From a phage, in sequence record PZ534511.1: a DNA stretch of 64,000 nt. One strand, written 5' to 3'. Shown piece by piece: positions 14,518-63,983 of this stretch. A model generated the notes under the pieces. It made no database searches. It worked only from the letters and a program-made list of their open reading frames with translations, and was not told the origin of the DNA. Every line of letters starts with the position of its first letter. The stretch's first letter is position 1. The translations under genes were made by a program, and so were the position numbers.

Positions 14518-14534
14518 CTTAAGGTCTCCTGATA

Positions 14535-14855
14535 TTAATCGTCAAGTTCAAAATAGATTTTAACAGCTTCATCAAAGATTGGAATCCCGATGTTGTTGAT
14601 AAGCTGCCAAACTACCATATCTTTACCTGGGTCTGGGAGAATGTCAACCTTTCTCCATGCGCTGTATATCCAGTTTGGACCACCTTCTGCACTAACTGGC
14701 AGATTTTCACCAGCCTCCTGCAGATACTTATACAGCAAAAGATATTCTGGATACTCTAGAACACTGTCCTCTGTAGTATATAGCAGTTCACGGTATACTT
14801 TTAAAAACCCTGCTGGGGTGATGTTTTCAGTCTTCATTTGCTGCTTCTCCTGCAT
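14535..14855 (-). CDS. hypothetical protein
   Basis: Track ORF 106 aa. Confidence 0.45.
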   Translation of the reverse strand: MQEKQQMKTENITPAGFLKVYRELLYTTEDSVLEYPEYLLLYKYLQEAGENLPVSAEGGPNWIYSAWRKVDILPDPGKDMVVWQLINNIGIPIFDEAVKIYFELDD

Positions 14856-15219
14856 TCATCAGATCTGCCATAGCGTCACCCACGAAGAGAACAACCACAT
14901 CGTTGACAGCGTCAGCATCATCTTTATTGACGTTGCTGAATTTAGGACACACAGCAATGATCATATAGACACCGTTACCAACCTGAACTGTCCGTGTGGT
15001 GCACATCATGGCGGTATTTGTGCCTTCTTTGAAGGCGAAGCCTTGAAGACGCTCCTCTAAAGTGTTACCGGTAGATTTCAGAAGCGCCAGCTCGTCCAAG
15101 TCATAGATGATATCTCCGGAAGTTAGTGTTGCCTTGCCATCAGACACCATAATAACTCCATCAGCACCGTCAAGCTTAGAGGCTTCAAAGATATCAATAT
15201 CCCAAATATTTTTCATCAC
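14827..15219 (-). CDS. hypothetical protein
   Basis: Track ORF 130 aa. Confidence 0.45.
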   Translation of the reverse strand: MMKNIWDIDIFEASKLDGADGVIMVSDGKATLTSGDIIYDLDELALLKSTGNTLEERLQGFAFKEGTNTAMMCTTRTVQVGNGVYMIIAVCPKFSNVNKDDADAVNDVVVLFVGDAMADLMNAGEAANED

Positions 15220-15536
15220 GCTTCCTCGTCGTCTAAGGAGTTGAAGATTTCACCGAAGTATTCTAAGACTTCTAGCTCCCGTGTGGTGCAGAAAACACAG
15301 TCACCGTTGTCATCCTCGATAACGGCCTCTTTACCCAGCACATCTACTTCAAGTTTATCGTTCAACAGGACGGCCCCTGTGTAAACTTTGTCAGCTGTGC
15401 AGTCCCGAAAAGCGGAGTCCTTCTCCAGATAGTCTGGCTTAACCTTGGCTTTAATTCGTTGATATTGTTTGGTCATTGCTATGGTCTCCTTTTTCTTAGA
15501 TGGGGCCATTATATCTGGCCCCATCTTTCTTGTCAA
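15216..15536 (-). CDS. hypothetical protein, paralogue family A (FRDCT / DxxGDxVxCT motifs)
   Basis: Shares AF[RK]DCT and DD[NE]GD[CS]V[FW]CT motifs with the adjacent 15540..15794 gene. Confidence 0.5.
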   Translation of the reverse strand: MTRKMGPDIMAPSKKKETIAMTKQYQRIKAKVKPDYLEKDSAFRDCTADKVYTGAVLLNDKLEVDVLGKEAVIEDDNGDCVFCTTRELEVLEYFGEIFNSLDDEEA

Positions 15537-15539
15537 GTA

Positions 15540-15794
15540 TTAATGTTCAGGTTTTACAAAAACCACTTCGTTAACGGTGCACCAGACAGAATCTCCTTCA
15601 TCATCTTTAAAGGTAAGGCACTGGGCTGAGTTTTCCAGCTCATCAATCTCTTCTTGTGATAAAGGAGCCCCTTCTTCCAAAAGGGCTTTTACTAAAGGGT
15701 TCTCACAAAACTCTGCTTCATAAATAGCACCAAGCGTGCAATCTTTAAAAGCTCGGTCATTTGCAACGCATGCTGGTTTCAACATGATTTTCAT
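15540..15794 (-). CDS. hypothetical protein, paralogue family A
   Basis: See 15216..15536; tandem paralogue. Confidence 0.5.
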   Translation of the reverse strand: MKIMLKPACVANDRAFKDCTLGAIYEAEFCENPLVKALLEEGAPLSQEEIDELENSAQCLTFKDDEGDSVWCTVNEVVFVKPEH

Positions 15795-15870
15795 TTTAGC
15801 AGTCTCCTCAATTATTTAAAAATCAACTCTCTGTTTGTGTGAAGCATCTTATATCTAATCTTACTTCTTG

Positions 15871-16269
15871 TCAATGACTATTTTCAATCAGCCACACAGG
15901 GTCGAGGTAAATTTGTTGGCGTGTTGCCCAATGACAAACTTCATTGTACGTCTGAACCTCTTTGTCTGTCAATTCACGAATAGGCTCATCTATACCCTCA
16001 TTTTTGTGGTAATCCCATTCTGCGTCTATCTCCCACAGCCATGACTTGTTGTCACCACGCTTACGCACACAGAAGTCACCAGGGCGGCCTGCCAGTGCAT
16101 TTAAGAACTCGTTCTCCACTCGCTCCTGGAGAATACTGAGGAGCAAAACGTTGGAGCATGATCGTAAAATATGCTTCAGCTCACAGTCATCGATCTCAAC
16201 TTCGATACGTTGTTTGACTGTGTGGGTACCTTTTACTAACATTCTACCTCCTCTAAACGAACTCTGCAA
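15871..16269 (-). CDS. hypothetical protein
   Basis: Track ORF 132 aa. Confidence 0.45.
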   Translation of the reverse strand: MQSSFRGGRMLVKGTHTVKQRIEVEIDDCELKHILRSCSNVLLLSILQERVENEFLNALAGRPGDFCVRKRGDNKSWLWEIDAEWDYHKNEGIDEPIRELTDKEVQTYNEVCHWATRQQIYLDPVWLIENSH

Positions 16270-16447
16270 GGGTTGTGTTGTTCACTGCACCACAGTAAAT
16301 GGAGTATCCCAGCCCATTAGAGTGCAGAAACCACGGAGTGCCGAAATTATCTTTCACGTAGACATCGCCGTTGCTTGTAAAGGGCCAATATTCTTCACCA
16401 AGGGTGAAATACCTACTCATACCCTCAGCCAGATACTTTACTTTCAT
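16253..16447 (-). CDS. hypothetical protein, paralogue family B
   Basis: Shares the pattern W[FY][IL]xH..NG.Y.IY...L..FV with 16444..16671 and the C-terminus of 16668..17042. Confidence 0.45.
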   Translation of the reverse strand: MKVKYLAEGMSRYFTLGEEYWPFTSNGDVYVKDNFGTPWFLHSNGLGYSIYCGAVNNTTLAEFV

Positions 16448-16671
16448 AGGTCCTCTTCAACAGCTACAAACTTGGCAAGCAGGGTGGTTCCGTAGATATG
16501 ATACTCACCGTTTGCCAGATGGGAGATAAACCAGGCAATCCCTTCCTCGTCTTTAATCATCTTGTTTGCACGATCTTTATCGTAATAAACCTCGTAGGTC
16601 TTTCCTTCTTTAAAGAAGGACAGGTCTGTCATCTTTTCTTCTACAAAAGTAGCTTTAACCAAAGTTGTCAT
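16444..16671 (-). CDS. hypothetical protein, paralogue family B
   Basis: See 16253..16447. Confidence 0.45.
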   Translation of the reverse strand: MTTLVKATFVEEKMTDLSFFKEGKTYEVYYDKDRANKMIKDEEGIAWFISHLANGEYHIYGTTLLAKFVAVEEDL

Positions 16672-17042
16672 TGATCGGTCTCCTTCTTGTTAAGTCTGAA
16701 TACTGCAATAATAGCATTCCCAAGGTGCAGTGTCAAATCATTTCCAAGATACCACAACATTCCACGGTCATCTTTAATGAAAGGGTAACAATCTGGTGCC
16801 TTCCAGACATTGTACACTTTCCCAACCTGAAAGAAATCAGGCCCTGTTGGGATTTTGGTGCCAGGCCACACTTGAGATACCTGAACACACTCCACCTGCA
16901 TAATAACAGGAATAGTCATGGATGTAAATGTTTTTGTTGGTTCTACTACCATAAAAGTCTCCTCTTTGCTCAACAACACTTCCATGTGTTGATAGTTTAC
17001 ATTAGTGACAATCACCCCAATTACGACCACACAAGTATTCAC
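16668..17042 (-). CDS. hypothetical protein, paralogue family B
   Basis: C-terminal half matches family B; overlaps the end of DNA polymerase exon 2. Confidence 0.45.
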   Translation of the reverse strand: MNTCVVVIGVIVTNVNYQHMEVLLSKEETFMVVEPTKTFTSMTIPVIMQVECVQVSQVWPGTKIPTGPDFFQVGKVYNVWKAPDCYPFIKDDRGMLWYLGNDLTLHLGNAIIAVFRLNKKETDQ

Positions 17043-17355
17043 CTGTGATCTGGAACGGGACTCCCATCATTTTAGAAGCTTGCCAGAAGCAATGCACCAC
17101 CATTTCACCCACAGGGCTCCAGATAAGTTCAAGCTTTCCGTCATCGTTCAGGATAGGATCGTACACCGTGTTTCCGTCTCTGTCAACCACTTCGTTTCCG
17201 TCCTCATCCTTGCGTGCCTTTTTGTACTTATGACCGTCGAACACATGAAGTTTGGCTTCCTGCTCTGCCTTAAATGCTTCCAATTCTTCAATTGTGTCGA
17301 AGGTGTACACAGTCTTATACTTAGGCGTGTCAGGGACCTGAAGTTGGTACTCATC
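17002..17355 (-). CDS. DNA polymerase (family A), exon 2 (C-terminal part carrying the DE of motif C)
   Basis: Begins GAU GAG (DEYQLQV...), which joined to exon 1 ...YYH gives HDEYQLQV, matching T7 gp5 motif C VHDEIQV; C-terminus GRNWGDCH matches T7 gp5 GPNWAICH. Confidence 0.75.
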   Translation of the reverse strand, partial: DEYQLQVPDTPKYKTVYTFDTIEELEAFKAEQEAKLHVFDGHKYKKARKDEDGNEVVDRDGNTVYDPILNDDGKLELIWSPVGEMVVHCFWQASKMMGVPFQITGEYLCGRNWGDCH

Positions 17356-18198
17356 CATCTGTTCAGGTAGGTCGTTAAGCTACCCCGCACCATTACGTGC
17401 ATAGCCATACAGTTTCCTGTATGGATCGGACTACCTCACTGCCTTGGTAACAAGGCACCTCCCATTTCGACCGCACTTGCTGGCCTACTCTACTCGCTTC
17501 TTCACACCAACCTGTGTTGGAGCTATGCTTTCGATAGTCTCTGAACGTTACTACCAGGTGTAGTTTTTAGAGATATGTTTCCACTGTCTTCTTTGCTTTA
17601 TAGCCCTGACGGTCTCATAAGGATATCCAAGATCCCTAATCTCGCATTGTCGTAGACCACTCTGCAACAGTTCGCAAATCTCTATTACCTCATCTTCTGT
17701 CAGCACAGCGTTGGCATTATACTCACCAACTGGCCTTACTCTGAGGTCATTATCATAGGCGTGCTTGATATTTCCACCAGGGGTGGTCCATTCCAGGTTC
17801 CAGTATGCATTGTTGTACTTATTCCCATCCTTATGGTTCACCCATGTGAGCCTTTCAGGATCCGGGTTTGATACAAAGCATTCAGCAACCAGGTGGTGGA
17901 CACCTTTTGTGCACTGCTTCCCCTCGATTAGCATGGTTACGCAAAGGTAACCTCTACCATTATCAAAACAAAACATTGTTGTATGATCACGTTTCGATAA
18001 AGGTATTGTTCCATCATCAAACACGGTATACCCGTGATAATCAGCTGTTCTAGCCATTTTAACTACACCCCTTTAGTCTTCGCTGCGGATTAGCATATTG
18101 AGCTTTTACCATACTCAGGTGTAAAAGTCAACTTAGCTTTCCCGTCAATTAAAGAGGTTATTCGACATAGATCACTCTATGAAGCCACAATGTTATTT
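17356..18198 (-). mobile_element. group I self-splicing intron interrupting the DNA polymerase gene, with HNH homing endonuclease ORF in the P6 region
   Basis: Minus-strand RNA carries conserved elements P (AAUUGACGGGAAAG, 18137-18150), Q (AAUCCGCAGC, 18082-18091), R (GUUCAGAGACUA, 17535-17546), S (UAGUCC, 17428-17433), and a P9-like hairpin with GAAA loop (17406-17424); 5' exon ends in U, with GUGG available as guide sequence; intron ends in G. Confidence 0.75.
17551..18057 (-). CDS. HNH homing endonuclease (intron-encoded)
   Basis: Motif WVNHKDGNKYNNAYWNLEW (HNH core); C-terminal helix-turn-helix-like region; lies between intron elements Q and R. Confidence 0.8.
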   Translation of the reverse strand: MARTADYHGYTVFDDGTIPLSKRDHTTMFCFDNGRGYLCVTMLIEGKQCTKGVHHLVAECFVSNPDPERLTWVNHKDGNKYNNAYWNLEWTTPGGNIKHAYDNDLRVRPVGEYNANAVLTEDEVIEICELLQSGLRQCEIRDLGYPYETVRAIKQRRQWKHISKNYTW

Positions 18199-20622
18199 AT
18201 GGTAATAGATAATACGACGGACACCTTCATCGTACCACCCACGCTTCACCATTTGGTGGTGCATGAGTATCCCAACTAAGTCACACAGCGATGCACCACC
18301 ATTCTGTTGGTATGCATTAAGTAAAGAGTGTTTAGATCGGGTCCAGATAGCATGACCATCAAAAGAGTAGATAAACTTCTTACCCGTTGCTTCCCAGAAT
18401 TTCTCCAGATCCTCTTTACGCCCCTTAAGACCAGGGTTGGCATCCCAAAGTGCATCGATTACCCTTTGTCCCAACTCTGGAGAGATGTCCAGCATATCTG
18501 CAACTTTATCTTTTTGTGCCCCGTACATAACCCCATACGTGATAGGTTTACCGTCGTTACGAGACACCTCTCTGCCTGCTACTTTTGTATATGCCTCAGC
18601 ATTGTTTTGGTGTGCGTCCCCGTTACTTACAACATCATAATACAAGCCGTTGTCGAACTCAAAGGCACCCCAAGCCCCGATAAGCTGCTCTAAGTTGGAC
18701 CCGTCAATACCGATCTGAAAGTATCCAGGAGGAACACCCCACAGACTACGCATCTCTTTACCCATAACCACTTTAGGAGATGGTTTAGGCATGTTTGCAC
18801 AAATACTGTGTTTCTGTCGTGAAGTGTTTGTTAACCCAGAACTTTTAGCAGGAAGCTTATGGTCAATCTTCAAACGTGGGTGATTAAGAAGACCAGTATC
18901 AACCTTATCCTCCTTGATTGGATCAAGGACCGATCTGCGGTTTCGCAATGATAACCACAAGACGATATCTTTAGCCATCTCTCCGTTCAATTTTTCAAGA
19001 TTCGGGCATAGGTGTCCAAACGTATCTTTCAGTTGCGGAGAAGTAATAAGTGCCCTAGCTTTTCTACGTATTTTCCCGAATACTTCCTTTTTAATCCTTT
19101 CGGAGTTAGGAAAGCTTCGGAACTTGTGCACGGTTGTCTGGAACTTAGCATCAGTTTTGTTCCAGAAGTTGATAATCAGGTCACAATACTCTGACTCTAA
19201 AAGCTCGTCCATATATGCATATACTCGTGCATCAACATCTGCATCAGGTAGAGCTTTCTTCTTGCTGTCTTTAGTTACATCCTTAGTTCTCCACATTGTC
19301 GGAAGCCAACCAGCACTGATCAGGTATCGCTTAATGTCGTCCTGGTTGCTGATTTTCATAGGTATCTTGCAGTCCGGCATTCGCTTCTGCTGTAGATCAC
19401 TTATTGCCTGATCCATTAGCTCTTTAGGTAAAGGTTGTGGTGTGGAGGTGCCCTTAATATAGCCTCTCAAGAAATCAGCCATCTTATCGGGGTCTTTGCA
19501 GCCCATCTCTTCACACCATTTTATCCCTATCTTACTGACATCTCCTGTAGAGGTAAATGCTCGCTTAGGTGGGGCTTTGAACTCTAAAGCGCTCATGTCT
19601 ACAGGGTAGCCAAGCTTATCTTTTAACCATTTCCAGCCATTATTGGAAATTGTCCCATCTTGGTTGAACGGCTTTTCAGGGAATTTAGGCCGCTGAGATA
19701 TTGATAACTCTTTTAAAGGAAGTTGAGGTTCAACACGATCAGCGATCTCTTTCATCCACGCATCACAGCGGTCACGTAAAGCAATAGCCCCGTCTATGTC
19801 GAAATACACACCCTGACGGGCCTGCAGCTCCATCAGGAAGTGCTGCAGCATGCCTCGGCGTAATGCGTTCTTCCAGGTGATCTTCTTGAACCCTTTCGGC
19901 TTCTCTTTGGCAGGATCGTACATAAAGTTCTGCATGTCAGATTTGCCGTAGAATACACCTTTTGATTCCGCTACCAGCTCTTTCCAGAGCAGCTCCTGGA
20001 TGATAACGTCCTCGAATACACGATCCACATACTTCCACAACGGAAGATCGCGCCAGTCATCAATTTGAACTTTCTGGTTACCAAGGGCGTAGCCCCATGC
20101 CATAAGGCCGTGAGGACCAACAGGCTGCATTTTCTTAGTAACCGGGTTGAATACAGAGTCCGGACAACCTTTTGGTAAAGGGCGATCAGGCCACAAAATT
20201 CGACTCATCGCCAACGTATCAAACAGGTTAACCTGGTGGTCGTTGATAGTCCCCATGCATTTAGGATCACGGAACATATCAAAATGAATACCGGATAATC
20301 TTTCCATCAGCATAAAGTCATAACTGTAGCAGTTATGGCAGTTCAAAGCTGTTGGTGACCAGTCGGAATTGCCTGTAAGCCAACCTTCCAACTCCGAAAA
20401 ATCTGCTATGCGAACTTCAAAATCTTTATAAAGAGTTTTCTTTGCCAGAATGAAGTTCTTGGCCTTTTCTATATCCTCCTCGGAGTAGTGTGTGCGGTCA
20501 TTTAGAGGAAGGAACAGCATAAAACGGTTCTTATTCAGCTCTTTAAACAGACCGCAGTGATAATAAAGATCTGGGTCTTCCAAAAGCCCAGAGGCCTCCA
20601 GATCGAAGCACCAATTACTCAT
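18199..20622 (-). CDS. DNA polymerase (family A, T7 gp5-like), exon 1 with 3'-5' exonuclease and polymerase motifs A/B
   Basis: N-terminal FDLEASGL (Exo I, DxE); motif B RNDGKPITYGVMYGAQ; ORF stops 2 codons after ...YYH, before motif C, which is supplied by exon 2. Confidence 0.8.
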
Positions 20623-42577: not shown

Positions 42578-42606
42578 TTGACACCAACACCAGATCTATG
42601 TATGAT
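42578..42606 (+). promoter_or_regulatory. sigma70-like promoter (TTGACA-17-TATGAT)
   Basis: Hexamers read directly; overlaps the first ATG of the track ORF, so the gene probably starts at the RBS-supported Met near 42637. Confidence 0.5.
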
Positions 42607-43044
42607 TATCTCACCAACCGAACAGAGGAGATCGTCATGGATAATCTTGCGGATGTAAATGTCGAAATTGTTAAACTAAAGTTCTTAGGCTTTCGAGACC
42701 CTTATTCTTTAACAGCTATACTAATGGACACTCACTTCACACCAGGTAAAGAGTACACTGCCTTCCGTTATATTTGCGGAGATCACGAATCAGCTTATAG
42801 TGTGAATACAAACCTCGGTGAGGGATATTTCATCAGAGATATCGCAGATCACTTGTGGGGTATGTGGGAGTTGGTGGAGGAAGAGAATAAATCCCTTCCT
42901 AAAGAGATTTGGGTGCACACCTTCCACACAGGTAAGTTTGGAGGTACGGAACATAAATCTATCCACTATGATGAAGAAAGTGCCATTAAACAACAAGCTG
43001 TGCTTGGTGGATCTGTAGAAAAATTTGTTAAATGCGAGGACTGA
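42598..43044 (+). CDS. hypothetical protein (probable start about 42637, MDNLADV...)
   Basis: Internal ATG preceded by AGAGGAGATCGTC RBS. Confidence 0.5.
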   Translation: MYDYLTNRTEEIVMDNLADVNVEIVKLKFLGFRDPYSLTAILMDTHFTPGKEYTAFRYICGDHESAYSVNTNLGEGYFIRDIADHLWGMWELVEEENKSLPKEIWVHTFHTGKFGGTEHKSIHYDEESAIKQQAVLGGSVEKFVKCED

Positions 43045-43047
43045 GAA

Positions 43048-43248
43048 ATGGCTGATTTTTGCAAAGATTGTTCTGAAGAGTTGTTTGGTCGTGACTGCGG
43101 AGATCTGAAAGGACTGATCACAGAGGACCAGTGGAAGGAAGGTTATGCGGCCCCTGTTATCTGTGAAGGCTGTGGTTACACCTATGTCGATCATGAAGGT
43201 AAGCGTGTCCAGCCGTCTGAAGATGGGTCGTGTTGGGAATATTACTAA
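43048..43248 (+). CDS. hypothetical zinc-ribbon protein
   Basis: CKDC ... CEGCG motifs; RBS upstream. Confidence 0.45.
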   Translation: MADFCKDCSEELFGRDCGDLKGLITEDQWKEGYAAPVICEGCGYTYVDHEGKRVQPSEDGSCWEYY

Positions 43249-43253
43249 TTATA

Positions 43254-43287
43254 AAAAGAAAGGGGCCGTCTGGCCCCTTTTTATTTG
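43254..43287. terminator. bidirectional rho-independent terminator between convergent gene blocks
   Basis: AAAAGAAAGGGGCCGTCTGGCCCCTTTTTATTT: perfect GGGGCC/GGCCCC stem flanked by an A-run and a T-run. Confidence 0.7.
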
Positions 43288-43294: not shown

Positions 43295-46200
43295 TTAACT
43301 AGGGAAGTTTGTATAAGCTTCGAGATGGTATTGCTGGTTACCAGGTAGCATAACACCTATGCTTGCAACACCTAATGTTCTACCACCAGGGTTCCACTGA
43401 AACTTAAATCCAATCCAACCCGAGCTTCTGGCTGCATCAATGTTGTCACTGTACCCAAAAGTGGCTAGACCATCAACACCTGCTCCGAAAAGCAGTTGTA
43501 TCTGGTTCCTTGGTAGGCCAATAATTTCAGGTATGTAAGCACCAAAAAATGTAGGGTTGGTGGTTGTGGTCGGATTGTTCATGACCGGACCGGTAAAGAC
43601 CCTCATATTGGACGTTCCTGCAGGTCTAGGGTAAGCCCCGTCAAGAGGATTTCCTTCCCAAATAAACCACTGAGGTGCCATCTGTCTGACAGTAAACGAT
43701 GTTGAAGACGTTTTGCGGCCTGCATCATCTCTAACTACAAACTTTATGGTGACATTCCCAGTAGCTTTAAATGTTACCAGCCCTGTGGTGGCATCCACTG
43801 TTGCAATGTTGGTATTACTACTTTCCCAAGTCTTTCTAATCCCGGATACGTTGGAAGGGGTGATAGAAGGTTCCTGCATCTGCAGTTTACCGCCCACAAT
43901 CCCTATGCCGTTGCCCGGATTATACAGCACACCGACCTCGTCTATAATGTTCCCTGCTTTGAGACTATACTTCCTTGAGAAGTTGTAAGTTCCGTTATAA
44001 GTGTGTGTCCCTGAGAATGTGACATCTGCCTTCCCGTAAGAGATGCAAACCAACGCATACTTCCTGTCAGGCAACGTTTCTCCAGTCTCTGGGTGAGTTT
44101 TACCTACCTGGAACACACTCGGGTCAGTAGAGTCGTGACTATCACTAACGGAGCTTGGACCGCCCATCAACTGTGACAAACAATTCCTTACCCATGTCCA
44201 GTTATTATCGCTGGAGAAGTCCACAGTCAAATCAAACACAACCCACTCATTTGGCTTCCACACAGGTGTTGCAATGGACTTGCCTACACCGCCTCCTTGG
44301 AGTGTTGCCGACTGTTCGGTGATCAGTGCCGCATAGGCCAGAGTTCCTAAACTCAGAGTCTGGCTTGCTGTCCTCACTACCTTAGAATCAGCATCTGTGA
44401 AGTTGTTGATGATTTGGAATGTGCCATAAGTGTTTTTACAGGTAATTCTGGCGTTCAGCGTGTCAATCTTCCTCACATCTGCCATAGCAGTGTTAGACAC
44501 AGAGAAGTCAGAAGCTTTAGCTGAGTTTGCCGCAACAGCAGGATCAACGTTAAGAGTTGCGTTGAACTGACAGGCAGGGGTAACCAGCAGCTTGTTATCA
44601 CCTATTTGCTTCCATGAAATACTTTGGACAGGTAGATTCCATTTAATACCTGAGAAAACTTTAGCAACCCTTGGCCCCAAAGCTCCAGTCCTGTTGTCTT
44701 TACAGCACATAGACATGGTGATCGTTGACGGAGTTGCCTGACCGAACAATTCCTGTGCTTTTGCAGAGGACATGGTGTAGAAATTGTCCTTAACAAACTC
44801 ATCAGCGGCTAAAGATCCATCAGCCCTCCACCACTGGACCTGATACCCTGTTTTATCCCAGCCTCCAACCTGCTTCAAGTCCTCCCAAGAGATTTCCAGA
44901 TCCCCCGTGGTAGGGTTGATTGCAGCAGTTCCTGGTGTACCGGATGACCACAATGGGATATCAAACCACGCAGGTTTAACAGATTGCACTGCATTAGGAC
45001 CTATTGCAGCAGCAAGTTGTTGACCCATCAGCACGCGAGCATCTTTCACCAGGCCCCATTCTATCATAGACCCAGAGTAACCTTCTTTCTTGTAGGCAGA
45101 GGATCCGTTCAAATGGATGAGCCTGCTGCAGTCGAAGCCATACGCTCCACCACCGTTAGGATCTGCAAAGTTGGTTATGATTCTATCCCTAATATTTTTC
45201 CATGCCCTACCTCCAATCTCGTAGTCATGGTCATAACATCTTTGCAACGTTGTCCAGCAAATGATTGCCATTCTTCTGCCGCCTGTGAACCCGAAAGCGC
45301 CGTCATTCAGCTCTTTCCACAGGTAACAGTTGGTTGTCCACATAGCCCTGTGGATATTGAACCAGTTTATAGATTTGGCTGAGTTGTTCCACTGAGTCCC
45401 AGGTAATTCAGGCCACACTGCATTGACTAGCATGTCCTCTGTACCGGCATCTATTAAGAAGCCTCTTACCTTCTTGCCCATACCTACCCTGTCTTTAGCA
45501 ATCCAATTGCCAAACAGTCTCAGTTTTGGACCATAAACAACATCCTCTGGGTGCTCAAAAGAGACATACTTTAAGTAGATTGTTGGGTCACCGTAGGTGC
45601 CATCACAAACACTTTTGTGCATGTTTTCGCCAAGGTCTAGACGAAGCCCCGTCACTACTTTAGACGTGTCGGTGAATTTGTCTGTTAAGTCAAATTCATA
45701 CCACCACCACCCACCACCTAGCATAAATTTCTTGCATCGCACAGCGTCTGTGTCAGATATTCTCTTATCCCCTGCAAAAGGTGAATCAGCAAACTGATAG
45801 TGCAGAGCAGTCTCAAATAGGTGGGTGGAAGTTCCGTTCTCTGCAAGAACTTGCTTACCTATCAGATCGCACTTAATGATCATCACAACACGCTTGTATC
45901 CGTTTGTTACCGGAACTTGCATAGATATGGATGTTCCATCCATGTTCGATCTTAGATCACTCATGATGATATAGGGGTCGACAGCGTTGCCTAAAGTTTC
46001 AGGCCCTGGAATTATCTTGTATTTCTTGACCTGGCCCATAAATCTGTCACTGGCGTAAGTTGCAGCCTCAAAACAAGAGCCACCACCAGGTAATTCTCCA
46101 GGTCCCCAGAAAAATGCCCCATAGCAGTTATAGAACCACTTATTAGGGTCGTATTTGTTCTTGAAGGTCTGGACCTCGTTGGCCTGTTTTGTCAAGAAAA

Positions 46201-48922
46201 CCTGCGTGTCTGTGAAGATTGCAGGGTTTACTCTCGCCTGTCTTGGAGGGTAACCTGTAGTTTGGTTAAACCACAAATTACAAGAGTAATCCCTCATATA
46301 GTCATAATCAGAGTATTTGTTTACATCTTCGTTCCAACACATGTTTAGGTTGGTACCGCCCATGCATACAATATATTCTGCGACATACTTATCACTTCTG
46401 GTAGGAATACCTATGAACCATCTGTTAACAGGCTCATCCCAAGCTGTGCGCTCATCTTTAACGCAGATAGCAATCCAGTCATGTGTTCCTGTTTTCTTGC
46501 ACACATCTCGCTTCATACCATAGTAGAACTCTTTAGTATTCGGCTCAGGTGCATTTATCAGGTAACTCCATGCCTGATTTGCATAAGTTCCATTGGTGCG
46601 TGGATCATGATCAAAGGCATACATGATGATCCTTTCCCCACCAAGATGTTCGCCAAGAGTAACTTTGACATTCACATCGCCGTAACCATTGCGAACAACA
46701 TCCATATTATCAATAGAGATACCTCTGGGCGTGTAGGCAATTTTCAGCGAGTTATCTTCACTAGTGCCGCCAAGTGTAATCCCTATGTTGTTTGTTGTCC
46801 CGTCGACATATCTTACTGTAGCTTCCCAGCGTATTCCGAAATACCCTGCATCATGGCTGACAATTTTCAGTGTACGAGCTCCTGGGTGAGGTTTTCCAGG
46901 ATCAGGCCAAGGGTCTGGGTGTTCGTGAACAGTCAACGACGTTCCGTTCTGCTCATTAACCTGCAACATTTTACCACCCTTGCCATTAGGATTGAACTCC
47001 CACAAGGCTTGTGTTTTCACAATATTGTCATACGTGGCGCGTCTTTGATCGTAGATCTCTTGGGTCACATCATAAGTGACTGATCCAGCATCCATTCTGT
47101 GGAGTCTGACCATATACGATGTATCCCCTTCTACTGCAGGCTGGGTCCCATTCAGCCCAAAGTATACAGTATCATTAACATGGAACTGTTTGTTTCTACC
47201 GACAGTATGCCATTTACCATCAGACGGGTACGCAGGAACTATGGTGTTCCAGTTCAAAGTCCTTGTCGTATGGGTTCTGCCTGTGCCATGCTTGTCATGA
47301 TAGGTTATTTTTACAGAGTACAGGCCACGTCTGTTAACATTTCTGTTATACTGGGTGACAACAACTTCATTGGCCCCTCCGTGGTTCCAGTTGGTGGAGA
47401 ATTGGTAATTTGCATCTGTAACAACCGTGCCTGCAGCATTTACCAGTTCAATCTTGTCAATAATGAACGTAGCCCCCTCTGGCTGAGGCTTCAATTTCAT
47501 CTTGACCGTGTCACCAATGTAAATATTGCTAACGCTGCTAACACCGTTAACGTCGAAAATATCCTCAACACCCCAACTGTCTACCGGGACATTTTTATAC
47601 CAATTCTCCGGAATCTCTGTGAACCCTTGGCTGTTAAGTCTGCCGCCAAAGAGGTTATTAGATCCTGTAAAACTTCCCCTTGGGATACCTGACCACCAAA
47701 GTTTACCATTAACAACAGTAAAGGTACCTAAGAAACCTTCTCTGTGGATGCCTTGGAAATAAACACTCTCTGTCCAGCTGACTGGCAGGCGTTGCTCAAC
47801 ATATTTAGCTGTAGCAAGAGCTTGATAGTGGATAAAATCGGCCCTAGGACTATTGTTTGCAGATTGTGCACCAATATCATTACATAAGTTGCGAGAGAAC
47901 CCACGATACTGCTTAGTGCCATTATTGAAGAAAATGCCACTTGTGCCGTACCCACGAGCCATCATTACCTCATGGGTGTAGGTGATATTCAGTTCCCGCC
48001 ATGTATCATCTCCCCAAATGTTTTGACCATAAAATACGTTAACAAGCTGCTGGTCATCGGGTCTATGCATCCTCTGTGTAGCAATTACTGCCCCGTTAGG
48101 ACCACACATAAACCCTTTCCACTCCTCATCTGCAGGAATGCCCCTCAAATCGTTACGAGTAATCTGCACAGGAGGCCAAACAAGGTCGTTTCTACTGTTA
48201 TTTCTCAGAAAGTCGTAACCTGCAATCCAGAATCCGTTAGGACCACCAAAAATAACCGAGTTGTCATGAACTTCACAATTAATTCTTGGATTTTTCCAAG
48301 GACCTGTCTCTGGACTTTCAGATGTTTCACCGATCTTAACTGGAGTAGCGTGTTGACTTTTGTCAACATGAAGAGAGCCGTAAGTATTATTGCCAGAGCC
48401 GTACAGGTGAAGCATACCATCAGCCTCTGGTGCAGCAATTACCCACACGGTATTGTTTACGCCACCCATTACTTCAACAAGTCTCTCAGGATGGGTGTCC
48501 AAATGCAACCCTGTTACGATCTGTTCCGGCAAAGGTGTCCACTCTCTGACACAAACATCGTTTCCACCTGCTGCCTCCGATCCGATAAGACCAGCTGTGC
48601 AACCAATATAGAAAAATTTATTATCGAATGTGCGGATTACAAATGCACGGTCAGCTCTCCAAACATGGTCTACGTTCCAAGCTGCCTCATTAGGATAGTT
48701 TATTGTATCAAGATCTCCAGTCCGACACTCTCCGAACCTATTATAGCCAGTAATATTAAGCTGACCATCATCAAAAAGTATAGCTAAGCTATTTACATAG
48801 GATACTGTGTTGCTTGTACCATCACTGTTGTCTATTGGGTATGACAGAACAGCAAGTTCCTTAATTCCACCCCTCTTATCGAGGAAATGACGACCAAGTT
48901 TTAGCAAAGGGATTGGAAGCAT
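43295..48922 (-). CDS. giant tail fibre / host-specificity adhesin (1875 aa) with Ig-like (Big_2-type) domains
   Basis: Single uninterrupted ORF; Ig-like segment NIATVDATTGLVTFKATGNVTIKFVVRDDAGRKTSSTSFTV; Gly/Asn/Thr/Trp-rich beta-rich composition; last gene of the tail module. Confidence 0.6.
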   Translation of the reverse strand: MLPIPLLKLGRHFLDKRGGIKELAVLSYPIDNSDGTSNTVSYVNSLAILFDDGQLNITGYNRFGECRTGDLDTINYPNEAAWNVDHVWRADRAFVIRTFDNKFFYIGCTAGLIGSEAAGGNDVCVREWTPLPEQIVTGLHLDTHPERLVEVMGGVNNTVWVIAAPEADGMLHLYGSGNNTYGSLHVDKSQHATPVKIGETSESPETGPWKNPRINCEVHDNSVIFGGPNGFWIAGYDFLRNNSRNDLVWPPVQITRNDLRGIPADEEWKGFMCGPNGAVIATQRMHRPDDQQLVNVFYGQNIWGDDTWRELNITYTHEVMMARGYGTSGIFFNNGTKQYRGFSRNLCNDIGAQSANNSPRADFIHYQALATAKYVEQRLPVSWTESVYFQGIHREGFLGTFTVVNGKLWWSGIPRGSFTGSNNLFGGRLNSQGFTEIPENWYKNVPVDSWGVEDIFDVNGVSSVSNIYIGDTVKMKLKPQPEGATFIIDKIELVNAAGTVVTDANYQFSTNWNHGGANEVVVTQYNRNVNRRGLYSVKITYHDKHGTGRTHTTRTLNWNTIVPAYPSDGKWHTVGRNKQFHVNDTVYFGLNGTQPAVEGDTSYMVRLHRMDAGSVTYDVTQEIYDQRRATYDNIVKTQALWEFNPNGKGGKMLQVNEQNGTSLTVHEHPDPWPDPGKPHPGARTLKIVSHDAGYFGIRWEATVRYVDGTTNNIGITLGGTSEDNSLKIAYTPRGISIDNMDVVRNGYGDVNVKVTLGEHLGGERIIMYAFDHDPRTNGTYANQAWSYLINAPEPNTKEFYYGMKRDVCKKTGTHDWIAICVKDERTAWDEPVNRWFIGIPTRSDKYVAEYIVCMGGTNLNMCWNEDVNKYSDYDYMRDYSCNLWFNQTTGYPPRQARVNPAIFTDTQVFLTKQANEVQTFKNKYDPNKWFYNCYGAFFWGPGELPGGGSCFEAATYASDRFMGQVKKYKIIPGPETLGNAVDPYIIMSDLRSNMDGTSISMQVPVTNGYKRVVMIIKCDLIGKQVLAENGTSTHLFETALHYQFADSPFAGDKRISDTDAVRCKKFMLGGGWWWYEFDLTDKFTDTSKVVTGLRLDLGENMHKSVCDGTYGDPTIYLKYVSFEHPEDVVYGPKLRLFGNWIAKDRVGMGKKVRGFLIDAGTEDMLVNAVWPELPGTQWNNSAKSINWFNIHRAMWTTNCYLWKELNDGAFGFTGGRRMAIICWTTLQRCYDHDYEIGGRAWKNIRDRIITNFADPNGGGAYGFDCSRLIHLNGSSAYKKEGYSGSMIEWGLVKDARVLMGQQLAAAIGPNAVQSVKPAWFDIPLWSSGTPGTAAINPTTGDLEISWEDLKQVGGWDKTGYQVQWWRADGSLAADEFVKDNFYTMSSAKAQELFGQATPSTITMSMCCKDNRTGALGPRVAKVFSGIKWNLPVQSISWKQIGDNKLLVTPACQFNATLNVDPAVAANSAKASDFSVSNTAMADVRKIDTLNARITCKNTYGTFQIINNFTDADSKVVRTASQTLSLGTLAYAALITEQSATLQGGGVGKSIATPVWKPNEWVVFDLTVDFSSDNNWTWVRNCLSQLMGGPSSVSDSHDSTDPSVFQVGKTHPETGETLPDRKYALVCISYGKADVTFSGTHTYNGTYNFSRKYSLKAGNIIDEVGVLYNPGNGIGIVGGKLQMQEPSITPSNVSGIRKTWESSNTNIATVDATTGLVTFKATGNVTIKFVVRDDAGRKTSSTSFTVRQMAPQWFIWEGNPLDGAYPRPAGTSNMRVFTGPVMNNPTTTTNPTFFGAYIPEIIGLPRNQIQLLFGAGVDGLATFGYSDNIDAARSSGWIGFKFQWNPGGRTLGVASIGVMLPGNQQYHLEAYTNFPS

Positions 48923-48932
48923 TGTGTTCTCC

Positions 48933-48964
48933 AGATAAGAAAACCGCCCCGTCAGGAGCGGTTA
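48933..48964 (-). terminator. rho-independent terminator or attenuator (minus strand)
   Basis: Minus-strand hairpin AACCGCTCCTGACGGGGCGGTT followed by TTTCTTATCT. Confidence 0.45.
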
Positions 48965-48972: not shown

Positions 48973-50718
48973 TTAACGTTGTGCAATTACTACGTCTACG
49001 ATATCACCAACACCACAATATGTTAATTGCAGCAAGGTAACACTATTAGCCTTGTTATTAATAACAGGCGTTGCCGACAGGATAGCATACTTATCGTGCA
49101 AAGTCACGTTGTGACCTACAGCATCCTGAATGACATAGATAACCGCAGTGAATGGATAAGGTTTATCTTCCGCTGATGTACCAGGCCATTGTCCTATTGT
49201 AAAATCCCCTTTCGCGTGGACAACATACATACTGGCCTGCCCGTTAGGTGTCCATGTCCCACTGGACGCGTCAACCTCCTCTAAATCAAAATCTACCTTT
49301 CCTGCGTGGAAAGTAGGGGCAGTAATGGTTTTACCCGCCTCAATTTCTTGAGAGGTGGTTATCTTGCCACTGGAGTTAATGCCATTACAAACAAAGTTGA
49401 CATTAGAGAAGTCTGGCAGCCACCCAGTCACTGTGCCGGATATTTCAAGGTTGTGAAGGTAGGTGGTGCCCGTCCCTGCTGCGTTTAAACTAACATCTCC
49501 ATTTACCTGCAAGTTTCTGGTAACGTTGCAGTTTTCAGAGTTTGCAGTTGTTGCAGTTAAAGTAGTGGTTGTCAGCTCGGTAATTACACCTTTGTTGGCT
49601 GTAAGCCCTTCCCCTTCAAAAGTTGCACGCTCATTGACTCTTAGGGTATTCAGAGCTATGTTTTGGATAGAGGCTGTACCTCGAATAACTACAGATCCGC
49701 CAACTTCTAAATCACCATTTATTAATGCGTCCCCCGTGCTTTCAATATAGCTAGGGTAAATCATGGTGCCATCGACAGAGTAGGTTATCCCTGTAACAGT
49801 GCCTGTCACCTCAAGGTTCTTAACCCTGGTGGTTCCATCTACCTGCAATGTCGGTTCGGTTGCTGCCTTCATGGCATTACCACGAATGTACACGTAGTCA
49901 AAAAAGTTATTACCTAGACCATCAAAATGCACATCGTTATTATTAGCCACTGGTTTCCCAGAAGTTATAGTGTCAGCTATAACCCTGTGGGTGGACACTT
50001 CATGAGGTTGCAGCTCTGTGCTTCTCCAGTCTGCATGCTTAGGATCACTCCACGCAAAAGTAAGTGTAGAAGTATTTGCCGTGAGGATTAGGTTCCTGAA
50101 GCGTGCAGTAGAATCTGCTCCATTAACAGGCCCATGTAAGGTGAGTGTGCCACCAACTATAGTGTTAGCAAGTTCTGTAAGACCTTTTACCACCAAAGAT
50201 CCTACAGTAACTTTCATTCCCTCCATGGCTTCAAATATGCTATCCACATAGTCAACAACAAACTCTGTGTTTGCTATAGACTCGGATTTGTCGTCCATTG
50301 GAGGCGTAGGTACTCGCGGGTCACCTTCGAACCTCGGACTGTTAAGTTTTGCGTAGTATTTTGCCATTACTGCAGAATCGGTATATAATCTCCAGTTTGG
50401 AGATTGTGAAGGATCTGCTGGCATTCTAACCGGGTTAGATTTTGATGCTGCGGGAGCGTACCACCACTGAGGGCCTGTGTCCCCTTTAAACTCGTACAGC
50501 TGGTTAAAAACTGTTGTGGATGCACCATACGCCCAAGGGATCGGTGGCGTTTTAAAATAAAGGGTGTCAAGCATGGCTTTTCGTACCGTAGGGATGGTGG
50601 TCCCATCCTCTACGACAACTTCATCCACAGCGTTACCGTTGACAATCAGGTGCAAACGTTCAGAATCAACAATTACTTGATCTACCGCCTGCTCAAAGCT
50701 TGTCATGTCTTGCGCCAT
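48973..50718 (-). CDS. tail fibre / tailspike protein (581 aa)
   Basis: Thr/Gly/Asn-rich repetitive beta-strand composition; position in the tail module. Confidence 0.5.
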   Translation of the reverse strand: MAQDMTSFEQAVDQVIVDSERLHLIVNGNAVDEVVVEDGTTIPTVRKAMLDTLYFKTPPIPWAYGASTTVFNQLYEFKGDTGPQWWYAPAASKSNPVRMPADPSQSPNWRLYTDSAVMAKYYAKLNSPRFEGDPRVPTPPMDDKSESIANTEFVVDYVDSIFEAMEGMKVTVGSLVVKGLTELANTIVGGTLTLHGPVNGADSTARFRNLILTANTSTLTFAWSDPKHADWRSTELQPHEVSTHRVIADTITSGKPVANNNDVHFDGLGNNFFDYVYIRGNAMKAATEPTLQVDGTTRVKNLEVTGTVTGITYSVDGTMIYPSYIESTGDALINGDLEVGGSVVIRGTASIQNIALNTLRVNERATFEGEGLTANKGVITELTTTTLTATTANSENCNVTRNLQVNGDVSLNAAGTGTTYLHNLEISGTVTGWLPDFSNVNFVCNGINSSGKITTSQEIEAGKTITAPTFHAGKVDFDLEEVDASSGTWTPNGQASMYVVHAKGDFTIGQWPGTSAEDKPYPFTAVIYVIQDAVGHNVTLHDKYAILSATPVINNKANSVTLLQLTYCGVGDIVDVVIAQR

Positions 50719-58377: not shown

Positions 58378-58444
58378 GTCACTCCTCCGGTATGAAAATC
58401 TCTACAAGGTATTTTACCAAATTTTGTAACAATAGTCAATCTGA

Positions 58445-58476
58445 GCATAAAAATAAACCCCGCCGAAGCGGGGCTT
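58445..58476 (-). terminator. rho-independent terminator (minus strand) after the gpJ-like gene
   Basis: Minus-strand hairpin GCCCCGCTTCGGCGGGGT (UUCG loop) followed by TTATTTTTAT. Confidence 0.65.
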
Positions 58477-63949: not shown

Positions 63950-63983
63950 ATACAAACAAAAAGCCCCCGCCGAAGCGAGGGCA
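63950..63983 (-). terminator. rho-independent terminator (minus strand) upstream of the minor tail gene block
   Basis: Minus-strand hairpin GCCCTCGCTTCGGCGGGGGC followed by TTTTTGTTTGT. Confidence 0.6.

What the first reader, a model, noticed from the sequence alone, without database searches (positions are those of the whole stretch)
43295..48922. Single 1875 aa tail fibre/adhesin gene with Ig-like domains
One uninterrupted 5.6 kb ORF ends the tail module. It has beta-rich repetitive composition and at least one Big_2-like Ig domain. Proteins of this size usually carry receptor-binding or depolymerase activity and determine host range.
Basis: partly seen in the sequence, partly recalled or inferred. 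Interest (0 to 1): 0.5.

Follow-up and report, generated by a model that had tools for sequence, protein, structure and literature searches.

The report
Giant Ig-domain tail adhesin gene
This is the already catalogued 1875-residue "gene 27" protein of rV5-like E. coli phages, most likely an optional, low-copy adhesin on the tail rather than a classical fibre or sugar-cutting spike; no experiment has yet shown what it does.

Summary
The ORF is real: window 43295-48922, minus strand, 1875 codons, uninterrupted. It has one significant Big_2 domain (aa 1682-1733) and is the last gene of the tail-fibre/baseplate operon.

The window is a Vequintavirus. The gene is the ortholog of rV5 gene 27 and is 99.4% identical in DNA to phages DrSchubert and Mangalyan. 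It is annotated in over 100 genomes as "Ig-like domain protein" or "lateral tail fiber protein with intimin domain", so it is not new.

No beta-helix, glycosidase or lyase domain was found, and no internal sequence repeats.

Architecture:
- aa 1-450: conserved RCC1-like module. It also heads the last tail-operon gene in related genera, in proteins of 567-1976 aa.
- aa 451-829: beta-sandwich domains.
- aa 830-1331: module found only in this lineage (CBM-like jelly-roll plus a helical part). It has no relatives among 1.84 billion representative proteins.
- aa 1332-1750: chain of Ig/FN3-like domains.
- aa 1751-1875: tip that occurs as two discrete alleles.

A terminator-like hairpin precedes the gene in every lineage examined. 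Virion evidence is weak: three poor peptides in the rV5 proteome. The gene is deleted or broken in a few isolates.

Best reading: an accessory, low-copy, tail-associated glycan adhesin. This is inferred, not shown.

The parts
43295..48922 (-). Complete CDS, 1875 aa plus stop. Ortholog of rV5 gene 27 (phrog_15684).
   Evidence: phrog_15684 matches over the full length at 4431 bits. DNA is 99.4% identical to DrSchubert and Mangalyan. rV5 Table S3 gives gene 27 as 13497-19133, 1878 aa.
48942..48963 (-). Terminator-like hairpin with a 9-bp GC-rich stem, a tetraloop and a TTTTCTTAT tail. It lies between the stop codon of the upstream 581-aa fibre gene and the RBS of this gene, and corresponds to rV5 't028'.
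   Evidence: The folded 51-nt stretch containing it has an MFE of -16.7 kcal/mol, z = -3.5. rV5 Table S4 lists the same element. An equivalent hairpin with a different stem sequence sits at the same place in the 8 other loci examined, including loci from other genera (ESCO5, 4MG).
48929..48932 (-). GGAG ribosome-binding site, 7 nt upstream of the ATG.
   Evidence: Read from the sequence.
47573..48922 (-). aa 1-450: the most conserved module, RCC1-like (probably a beta-propeller). Inferred to be the virion-attachment domain.
   Evidence: About 75% identity even in homologs that are 40-58% identical overall. phrog_11922 'tail protein' 2.3e-26 and phrog_4219 RCC1 4.3e-7. Pfam RCC1-like domain only sub-threshold, 3.8e-4. 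Homologous to the N-termini of ESCO5 gp226 and 4MG_038, which do pass the Pfam RCC1 cut-off. The AlphaFold model of this part is not confident.
46436..47572 (-). aa 451-829: beta-sandwich (Ig-like) spacer domains.
   Evidence: AlphaFold segment 1 has 42% strand here; pLDDT is 55-78 for aa 450-565 and about 80 for aa 735-850. A weak Bact_surface_Ig-like match occurs at the same position in homologs.
45548..46108 (-). aa 939-1125: beta-jelly-roll with a fold like a carbohydrate-binding module, inserted in the lineage-specific central module. It contains a local variability hot spot at aa 951-1000.
44930..46435 (-). aa 830-1331: central module confined to this lineage, consisting of helical parts (aa 830-938 and 1126-1331) around the jelly-roll. 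It is strongly conserved, with invariant residues E1162, D1163, N1186-W1187-F1188-N1189, H1191-R1192, E1280 and E1288.
   Evidence: Invariant columns in alignment A1. An exhaustive HMM search with aa 826-1340 against 1.84 billion representative proteins found only this family, 3 hits. No Pfam or PDB hit. The helical parts were modelled at pLDDT about 25, so their fold is unknown.
43673..44929 (-). aa 1332-1750: chain of FN3/Ig-like beta-sandwich domains.
   Evidence: pLDDT is 50-77 for aa 1332-1570 and 80-92 for aa 1590-1760. Foldseek against the PDB matches cadherin ectodomains, NUP210, the Sap and SbsB S-layer proteins and the PrgB Ig-like domains, E 1e-11 to 1e-7. phrog_215 'structural protein with Ig domain' 1.1e-29. 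BFVD models of the APECc02 and V18 C-terminal fragments agree with the model (TMt 0.79 and 0.88).
43724..43879 (-). aa 1682-1733: the Pfam Big_2 match, which is the 'intimin domain' of the BASEL annotation.
43298..43672 (-). aa 1751-1875: C-terminal tip domain that occurs as two alleles. Inferred ligand-binding end.
   Evidence: Among 7 orthologs, 30 of 50 columns vary in aa 1751-1800, whereas elsewhere synonymous changes far outnumber amino-acid changes. tblastn finds 38 records at >=95% identity and 76 records at about 62%, with none in between, and no match outside the genus. The allele does not track the similarity of the rest of the gene.
43259..43280 (-). Terminator hairpin downstream of the stop codon, at the point where transcription from the two strands converges (rV5 't027'; the overlapping rV5 't026' is on the other strand).
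   Evidence: The folded 50-nt stretch containing it has an MFE of -16.7 kcal/mol. rV5 Table S4.

Best explanation
The gene encodes the Vequintavirus 'gp27' protein. I read it as an accessory, low-copy adhesin on the tail, built as a single chain of globular domains rather than as a classical trimeric fibre shaft.

Inferred mechanism:
1. The gene is transcribed late, by read-through of the terminator-like hairpin that closes the preceding fibre genes. This would keep its amount below that of the other fibre proteins.
2. The highly conserved N-terminal RCC1-like module (aa 1-450) docks the protein on a conserved part of the baseplate or fibre network. The same module heads the last tail-operon gene in at least five related lineages.
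3. About ten beta-sandwich domains form a flexible arm.
4. The central module, which includes a CBM-like jelly-roll, and the Ig-like domains give weak, multivalent binding to surface glycans.
5. The two-allele C-terminal domain (aa 1751-1875) contacts a host-surface ligand that varies between strains.

The protein would improve adsorption on some natural hosts or substrates. It would not be needed on laboratory K-12, where published work points to the enterobacterial common antigen and the LPS core as the receptors.

Shown here: the ORF, its position, the Big_2 domain, the conservation gradient, the two tip alleles, the hairpin, and the absence of relatives of the central module.

Inferred: presence in virions, the attachment role of the N-terminus, glycan binding, low copy number, and any effect on host range.
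For: Position and synteny:
- It is the last gene of the tail-fibre/baseplate operon in this window and in DrSchubert.
- The corresponding gene is also last in ESCO5, 4MG, L012 and L023.

Shared N-terminal module:
- aa 1-207 are 30-39% identical to the N-terminus of the last tail-operon gene in Phapecoctavirus and Seunavirus.
- Between ESCO5 gp226 and the 1936-aa long form L015, pairwise BLASTP similarity runs through about aa 1-445/490. For this protein directly, similarity beyond aa 207 rests on short matches near aa 392-485.
- The proteins carrying this module are 567, 890, 1641, 1875-1878, 1936 and 1976 aa long.

Conservation polarity:
- In distant homologs, identity is about 75% in aa 1-450 and 15-30% in aa 1450-1875.
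- Within the genus, synonymous changes far outnumber amino-acid changes, except at three hot spots. The strongest is aa 1751-1875.
- That tip exists as two discrete alleles, reassorted relative to the rest of the gene.

Fold evidence:
- Big_2 domain.
- Strings of Ig/cadherin-like domains.
- Matches to Ig-rich tail proteins of phages N4, SU10 and R4C, and to many carbohydrate-binding modules.

Virion evidence:
- Locus 27 appears in the rV5 virion MudPIT table with 3 peptides and 9 spectra.
- RCC1-like proteins (phrog_4219) are genuine virion proteins of the related phage W70 (PMC11370258).

Dispensability:
- APCEc02 lacks aa ~434-1416, V18 is fragmented, and DrSchubert is frameshifted in a T6 run.
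- Published genetics point to the enterobacterial common antigen and the LPS core glucose as the receptors on K-12 (PMC8594841).

Hairpin:
- A hairpin lies just upstream of the RBS in all 9 loci examined, with different stem sequences.
Against: - Virion presence is not established. The three rV5 peptides are non-tryptic or semi-tryptic with low DeltaCN (0.10-0.40). They sit at the bottom of the table next to rIIA, a non-structural protein, and the authors did not mark gp27 as having MS support.
- The RCC1-like assignment of the N-terminus is sub-threshold in this protein (20 bits against a cut-off of 150; PDB profile search E=2.2). AlphaFold did not fold it (pLDDT 25-60).
- The oligomeric state is unknown. 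A trimeric assembly cannot be excluded from monomer models built on a 16-sequence alignment.
- No binding or host-range data exist for any ortholog in the papers I could reach.
- The truncated or fragmented copies in APCEc02, V18 and DrSchubert could partly be assembly or homopolymer sequencing errors.
- The hairpin may simply stabilise the upstream mRNA. Its effect on expression of this gene is untested.
Confidence: 0.5

Rival explanations
1. It is a classical homotrimeric lateral tail fibre subunit, one of the three lateral fibre sets of Vequintavirinae as in the BASEL annotation. The N-terminus would join another fibre protein and the C-terminus would act as the trimeric receptor-binding tip.
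For: - BASEL annotates it as 'lateral tail fiber protein with intimin domain'.
- Maffei et al. list it among the three largest fibre genes with allelic variation, here moderate.
- It sits in the fibre operon.
- It has the N-conserved, C-variable polarity of such proteins.
- rV5 micrographs occasionally show thin 70-nm fibres (PMC3606486).
- Which genes make which fibres is still open for this group.
Against: - The N-terminal module is RCC1-like, a fold that normally acts as a monomer.
- No chaperone gene follows it; the downstream genes converge on it from the other strand.
- The gene is broken or deleted in some isolates.
Confidence: 0.17
2. It is a decoration protein not involved in receptor recognition, in the manner of Hoc. 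It would sit on the capsid, neck or tail tube, and its Ig-like domains would mediate loose adherence to mucus or other environmental glycans.
For: - The Big_2 and Ig-like domains match phrog_215 'structural protein with Ig domain', which PHROGs places in the head and packaging category.
- The gene appears dispensable.
- The host is a gut phage host (established knowledge: Fraser et al. 2006 on phage Ig-like domains; the 'bacteriophage adherence to mucus' idea).
Against: - The gene lies at the end of the tail-fibre operon in all five lineages, not in the head module.
- 208 kDa with a conserved 500-aa module is far larger than known decoration proteins.
- A tip with two discrete alleles argues for a ligand that varies between strains, not a generic glycan.
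Confidence: 0.12
3. It is not a virion component. It would be a late-expressed soluble protein released at lysis or acting inside the cell, for example a surface-glycan-modifying enzyme or a factor in superinfection or defence. The central conserved module would be the active part.
For: - It was not accepted as MS-supported in rV5 despite offering many tryptic peptides.
- It is separated from the fibre genes by a terminator-like hairpin.
- The central module is strongly conserved, with invariant acidic and histidine residues, and has no known relatives.
- The gene is dispensable in some isolates.
Against: - No signal peptide is obvious from inspecting the N-terminus, though no predictor was run. 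No enzymatic family was detected.
- Ig-like chains and the N-conserved, C-variable polarity are typical of virion surface proteins.
- Homologs of the N-terminal module are annotated as tail proteins (phrog_11922), and RCC1-like proteins are virion components in phage W70.
Confidence: 0.12
4. It is a depolymerase tailspike: a capsule- or O-antigen-degrading enzyme of the beta-helix or glycosidase type.
For: - Large size and position among fibre genes that do carry glycosidase or deacetylase domains.
- A CBM-like jelly-roll next to an unmodelled conserved helical domain is a layout seen in glycan-active enzymes.
Against: - No Pfam, PHROG or PDB match to any GH, PL, CE or pectate-lyase family.
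- Fold searches return no beta-helix.
- The central module has no homologs at all among 1.84 billion representative proteins, so it cannot be assigned to any enzyme family.
Confidence: 0.06

Closest known systems
rV5 gene 27 product and its orthologs (phrog_15684; GenBank 'Ig-like domain-containing protein'; BASEL 'lateral tail fiber protein with intimin domain', e.g. DrSchubert bas50_0041)
   Same: The same gene: 99.4% DNA identity and 99.6% amino-acid identity to the nearest records, the same length (1875-1878 aa), the same synteny and the same flanking terminators.
   Different: Nothing substantive. This copy carries the less common of the two tip alleles (38 records against 76). It is intact where DrSchubert has lost one T in a T6 run.
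Last-gene-of-tail-operon proteins of related genera: Phapecoctavirus ESCO5 gp226 (890 aa, 'tail protein', phrog_11922), Seunavirus 4MG_038 (567 aa), and an IMG/VR lineage (1641 aa)
   Same: A homologous N-terminal RCC1-like module of about 450 aa, Ig-like domain(s) towards the C-terminus, the same genomic position, and the same upstream hairpin.
   Different: They lack the central module (aa 830-1331) and most of the beta-sandwich arm. Their C-terminal parts are unrelated to this one; ESCO5 has a weak DUF285-like region.
Ig-rich, single-chain tail adhesins of other phages (N4 gp65 non-contractile sheath, SU10 'surface protein', R4C 'Megatron') and bacterial multi-Ig surface proteins (intimin/invasin, Leptospira Lig proteins, S-layer Sap/SbsC, PrgB)
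   Different: Sequence identity is only 8-22%. There is no intimin beta-barrel or LysM anchor and no identified C-type-lectin tip. The N-terminal propeller-like module and the central module have no counterpart in these proteins.
T4 Hoc and other Ig-like decoration proteins of phage heads and tails
   Same: Ig-like domains exposed on the virion surface, non-essential, and thought to give weak glycan adherence (established knowledge; phrog_215 hit).
   Different: This protein is ten-fold larger, is encoded in the tail-fibre operon, and has a tip with two alleles and a conserved central module.
Carbohydrate-binding modules with a beta-jelly-roll fold (CBM27, 28, 8, 11, 30, 4, 22)
   Different: Sequence identity is 5-13%. 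No binding-site residues could be compared, and the jelly-roll is a very common fold.

Membership tests
rV5 gp27 orthologous group (phrog_15684) | Full-length sequence similarity | tested here: met
   phrog_15684 matches aa 1-1874 against profile positions 1-1877 of 1878, 4431 bits. 108 phage records cover at least 80% of the gene at 80-99% DNA identity.
rV5 gp27 orthologous group (phrog_15684) | Conserved position: last gene of the tail-fibre operon, followed by convergent small genes | tested here: met
   The same holds in a 40%-identical homolog.
Big_2 bacterial Ig-like domain (PF02368) | Pfam score above the gathering threshold | tested here: met
   34.7 bits against 22.8, aa 1682-1733.
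RCC1-like repeat beta-propeller | RCC1 or RCC1-like-domain profile match above the curated cut-off in this protein | tested here: not met
   PF25390 scores 20.3 bits against 150, and RCC1_2 scores 13.7 against 22. phrog_4219 gives 4.3e-7. The PDB profile search gives only HERC2 RLD at E=2.2.
RCC1-like repeat beta-propeller | Homology to proteins that pass the RCC1 threshold | tested here: met
   ESCO5 gp226 (PF00415 24.2 bits against 21.7) and 4MG_038 (36.9 against 21.7). BLASTP of this protein against them gives 3e-28 and 2e-12.
RCC1-like repeat beta-propeller | Seven-bladed propeller fold | tested here: inconclusive
   The AlphaFold model of aa 1-450 has pLDDT 21-66, so no reliable fold was obtained.
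Homotrimeric phage tail fibre / tailspike | Encoded in the tail or baseplate module | tested here: met
Homotrimeric phage tail fibre / tailspike | Fibrous trimerisation folds (triple beta-helix, coiled coil, beta-spiral) or a C-terminal intramolecular chaperone | tested here: not met
   None was detected by Pfam or PHROG. Fold searches return monomeric Ig strings and CBMs. Only monomer models were made and no coiled-coil predictor was run, so trimerisation as such was not tested.
Homotrimeric phage tail fibre / tailspike | Conserved N-terminal attachment part and variable C-terminal receptor-binding part | tested here: met
Homotrimeric phage tail fibre / tailspike | Presence in purified virions | tested here: inconclusive
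   rV5 Table S5 lists 3 peptides, 9 spectra and 3.1% coverage, all of low quality. Table S3 does not flag the protein as MS-supported.
Homotrimeric phage tail fibre / tailspike | Homotrimeric state | not testable with these tools
   Needs SEC-MALS, cryo-EM or multimer prediction.
Depolymerase tailspike (pectate-lyase-like beta-helix, GH/PL/CE domains) | A recognisable catalytic domain or beta-helix | tested here: not met
   No such hit. The central module has no relatives.
Intimin/invasin family | Big_2 repeats | tested here: met
Intimin/invasin family | N-terminal outer-membrane beta-barrel and LysM anchor | tested here: not met
   The N-terminus is RCC1-like, and no intimin/invasin beta-barrel or LysM family appears among the Pfam matches at E<=1. 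The 'intimin domain' of the annotation is only the Big_2 domain.
Hoc-like decoration proteins | Ig-like domains | tested here: met
Hoc-like decoration proteins | Encoded with, and bound to, the capsid | tested here: not met
   The gene lies in the tail-fibre operon. Its location on the particle was not tested.
Carbohydrate-binding module (beta-jelly-roll) | Jelly-roll fold | tested here: inconclusive
Carbohydrate-binding module (beta-jelly-roll) | Glycan binding | not testable with these tools
   Needs a glycan array or ITC.

The most novel reading that the evidence does not exclude
The protein is the founding example of a distinct kind of phage host-recognition appendage. It would be a single-chain fibre anchored by an RCC1-like propeller, and its 500-aa central module (aa 830-1331) would be a new glycan-active enzyme or lectin domain. 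That module is confined to this lineage and combines a helical domain carrying invariant E1162/D1163/H1191/E1288 with a CBM-like jelly-roll.

This appendage would be a fourth adsorption device, beside the three lateral fibre sets described for Vequintavirinae. Its amount would be set by the conserved terminator-like hairpin in front of the gene.
Probability: 0.2. Interest if true: 0.55.

Novelty: already known. Interest (0 to 1): 0.3.

Why it matters
rV5-like phages are used in phage therapy and food-safety work because of their broad host range, yet it is still unsettled which genes build which of their fibres (PMC8594841; the phi92 structure paper PMC13450770 leaves fibre II unassigned). This 208-kDa protein is the largest product of the fibre locus and has never been characterised.

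Three points make it a well-defined target for deletion, allele-swap and localisation experiments:
- It is probably not a depolymerase or a classical trimeric shaft.
- Its C-terminal 125 residues come in two reassorting alleles.
- It seems dispensable in some isolates.

As a sequence finding it is ordinary, because the gene is already in more than 100 database records.

Tried and rejected
- **Family and PDB sequence searches.** Pfam and PHROG scans of the whole protein and of homologs gave only Big_2/Ig and weak RCC1 hits. PDB sequence searches with the protein and with two profiles gave nothing significant beyond Ig-like domains; HERC2 RLD reached only E=2.2.
- **Exhaustive HMM search.** The profile of aa 826-1340 found only the protein's own family, 3 hits.
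- **AlphaFold, aa 1-850.** Mean pLDDT was 48.5 and the propeller region was not folded, so I did not use this model for fold searches.
- **AlphaFold, aa 830-1875.** Both helical parts of the central module came out at pLDDT about 25, so no fold could be assigned to them.
- **Second word-indexed homolog search (N-terminus only).** It returned just three near-identical fragments and added nothing.
- **Repeats.** Self-BLASTP and Tandem Repeats Finder found no internal repeats. tblastn of each segment against the window found no paralogs.
- **Literature.** The phiTE and phi92 cryo-EM papers do not mention an RCC1-like or Ig-rich fibre protein. The CB7 paper has no RCC1 text. The phi92 2012 and PVP-SE1 2011 papers are not held, so virion proteomics of the positional homologs could not be checked.
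- **PF26918.** This family is precomputed on homolog P0001, but rescanning P0001 against the local Pfam copy did not return it.
- **Readings considered and rejected.** A depolymerase or beta-helix tailspike, because no supporting domain was found. Membership of the intimin family, because only the Big_2 domain is shared.
Full report
**Observation**

The window has a single ORF at 43295..48922 on the minus strand. It starts with ATG and runs for 1875 codons with no internal stop. A GGAG ribosome-binding site lies 7 nt upstream. Pfam places one significant Big_2 domain at aa 1682-1733 (E=1.7e-8, 34.7 bits against a cut-off of 22.8).

The genes upstream on the same strand match PHROG families for tail fibres, a fibre assembly chaperone and baseplate proteins. 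The genes downstream lie on the other strand, and the GC skew changes sign there. So the ORF does close the tail module.

Self-BLASTP finds no internal repeats and Tandem Repeats Finder finds nothing of note. "Beta-rich" is roughly right: DSSP on the AlphaFold models gives 34% strand and 14% helix, with two helical stretches.

**Identity**

The gene is 99.4% identical in DNA to Escherichia phages DrSchubert and Mangalyan. 108 phage records cover at least 80% of it at 80-99% identity, nearly all of them Vequintavirus.

It is the ortholog of rV5 gene 27 (13497-19133, 1878 aa, "conserved hypothetical protein", Big_2; PMC3606486 Table S3). It belongs to phrog_15684, which it matches end to end. 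GenBank calls it "Ig-like domain-containing protein". The BASEL collection calls it "lateral tail fiber protein with intimin domain". The object is therefore already known and annotated, but I found no experimental work on it.

**Anatomy**

- **aa 1-450.** This is the best conserved part, at about 75% identity even in metagenomic homologs that are only 40-58% identical overall. It matches phrog_11922 "tail protein" (2.3e-26) and phrog_4219 "regulator of chromosome condensation" (4.3e-7).
  - The Pfam RCC1-like domain match is sub-threshold in this protein.
  - The module is homologous to the N-termini of ESCO5 gp226 (Phapecoctavirus, 890 aa) and 4MG_038 (Seunavirus, 567 aa). Both pass the Pfam RCC1 cut-off and also carry Big_2 domains.
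  - Between family members (ESCO5 gp226 and the 1936-aa long form), pairwise comparison extends the homology over about 445-490 residues.
  - The AlphaFold model of this part is not confident, so the propeller fold is inferred rather than shown.
- **aa 451-829.** Beta-sandwich domains of moderate model confidence.
- **aa 830-1331.** A strongly conserved module with many invariant Trp, Cys, Glu, Asp and His residues.
  - Its middle part (aa 939-1125) is modelled with pLDDT 70-87 as a beta-jelly-roll.
  - The flanking parts are predicted helical but at pLDDT about 25.
  - An exhaustive profile search of 1.84 billion representative proteins with aa 826-1340 found only the protein's own family. 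The module is confined to this phage lineage and cannot be assigned to any enzyme or lectin family.
- **aa 1332-1750.** A chain of FN3/Ig-like domains, with pLDDT up to 92.
  - Foldseek matches cadherin ectodomains, NUP210, S-layer proteins and the PrgB Ig-like domains.
  - BFVD models of the APECc02 and V18 C-terminal fragments agree with my model (TMt 0.79 and 0.88).
- **aa 1751-1875.** The C-terminal domain.

**Variation**

Among seven Vequintavirus orthologs, synonymous differences far outnumber amino-acid differences along almost the whole gene. The exceptions are three hot spots: aa 251-300, aa 951-1000 and, by far the strongest, aa 1751-1875.

The last 125 residues occur as two discrete alleles. 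38 records are at least 95% identical to this window and 76 records, including rV5, LL12 and Murica, are about 62% identical, with nothing in between and no match outside the genus. The differences cluster in two patches around a conserved core. The allele does not follow the similarity of the rest of the gene, which indicates recombination.

This is the pattern expected of a ligand-binding tip on a conserved scaffold.

**Wider family and context**

A scan of IMG/VR and the other loci shows the N-terminal module at the head of proteins of 567, 890, 1641, 1875-1878, 1936 and 1976 aa. Wherever the surrounding genes were examined (ESCO5, 4MG, L012, L023), the gene is the last of the tail-fibre operon.

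In all nine loci examined, a GC-rich hairpin lies between the stop codon of the preceding fibre gene and the RBS of this gene. The stem is 8-10 bp with a tetraloop and a mostly T-rich tail, and the stem sequence differs between lineages. It corresponds to rV5 terminator t028.

There is no room for a promoter between the hairpin and the RBS. Transcripts of this gene must therefore pass through the hairpin. I infer reduced expression relative to the other fibre genes, but this is untested. A second hairpin terminates the gene.

**Virion evidence**

The rV5 MudPIT table lists locus 27 with 3 peptides, 9 spectra and 3.1% coverage. The peptides are non-tryptic or semi-tryptic with low DeltaCN. They sit next to rIIA, a non-structural protein, at the bottom of the list, and the authors did not flag gp27 as MS-supported in Table S3. 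I treat virion presence as suggested, not established.

RCC1-like proteins (phrog_4219) are clear virion components of the related phage W70 (PMC11370258). The 2026 phi92 structure paper could not resolve or assign fibres I and II and does not mention such a protein (PMC13450770).

**Dispensability**

- Phage APCEc02 keeps only nt 1-1301 and nt 4248-5628 of the gene. It therefore lacks aa ~434-1416, and the remainder is split into three ORFs.
- V18 has a shortened copy split into four ORFs.
- DrSchubert has lost one T from a T6 run at codon 1792, which cuts off the tip.

Some of these changes may be sequencing or assembly errors. Taken together they suggest that the protein is not needed for growth on laboratory hosts. 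That fits the genetic evidence that these phages use the enterobacterial common antigen and the LPS core glucose on K-12 (PMC8594841).

**Interpretation**

The best-supported reading (confidence about 0.5) is an accessory, low-copy, tail-associated adhesin built as a single chain of globular domains:

- a conserved N-terminal RCC1-like module for docking;
- an arm of about ten beta-sandwich domains;
- a lineage-specific central module with a CBM-like domain;
- a tip that exists as two alleles and binds a ligand that varies between strains.

The rivals are a classical trimeric lateral fibre (0.17), a Hoc-like decoration protein (0.12), a non-virion late protein (0.12) and a depolymerase tailspike (0.06).

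No beta-helix, GH, PL or CE domain was found by any method.

**Verdict**

The gene is already known, being near-identical to annotated genes in more than 100 genomes, so the finding itself is ordinary. What remains of interest:

- the protein is uncharacterised;
- it carries a conserved 500-aa module with no relatives anywhere;
- it has a tip with two alleles;
- it has a conserved upstream hairpin;
- it bears on the open question of which genes build the multiple fibres of rV5-like phages.

Interest is 0.3.

Noticed in passing
window 48942-48963 (-); also L001, L002, L003, L012, L015, L017, L021 and L023, in each case just upstream of the big gene: A terminator-like GC-rich hairpin lies between the preceding fibre gene and the RBS of this gene in every lineage examined. 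The stem sequence differs between lineages while the structure is kept. There is no room for a promoter after it, which suggests conserved attenuation or mRNA processing ahead of the last gene.
   Followed up: partly
window 58455-58476 (-) and 63963-63982 (-): Two further strong terminator-like hairpins divide the minus-strand tail module into sub-units. The one at 58455-58476 is followed by a promoter-like site (58411-58439: TTGACT, 17 nt, TAAAAT, with a TG) ahead of the baseplate gene.
   Followed up: no
GenBank MG0656xx records: Fifteen or sixteen unannotated records of 128-143 kb named 'Campylobacter phage' carry this E. coli Vequintavirus gene at about 93% DNA identity. They are probably mislabelled or came from contaminating coliphages.
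   Followed up: no
P0020; P0002: A protein labelled 'hypothetical protein, partial [Eggerthella lenta]' is 96% identical to the N-terminus. Another, labelled 'Escherichia coli', sits on a 124-kb contig. Both look like phage sequence inside bacterial assemblies.
   Followed up: no
L001 (DrSchubert), codon 1792 of the ortholog; L004 (APCEc02); L005 (V18): The ortholog is disrupted in some isolates: loss of one T in a T6 run (DrSchubert), a roughly 2.9-kb internal deletion plus frameshifts (APCEc02), and several deletions (V18). These are either real loss of an accessory gene or assembly errors.
   Followed up: partly
L012 6211-7965 (homolog of window 48973-50718, the 581-aa gene just upstream): The upstream 581-aa fibre protein belongs to Pfam families named after phage phiTE protein 241 (PF26208/PF26209). 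It may therefore correspond to a protein of phage phiTE, whose cryo-EM structure has been published.
   Followed up: no
window 42790-43194 (-): A 134-aa minus-strand ORF just downstream of the gene has no PHROG match. It overlaps the plus-strand ORF 42598-43044, the position of a CDS annotated in DrSchubert. It is probably not a gene.
   Followed up: no
window 43298-43672 (-): The two tip alleles differ mainly in two patches, aa ~1752-1796 (including a 3-residue indel) and aa ~1838-1875, around an almost invariant core (FGAYIPEIIGLPRNQIQLLFGAGVDGLATFGYSDNIDAARSSGW). This points to a defined binding surface.
   Followed up: partly
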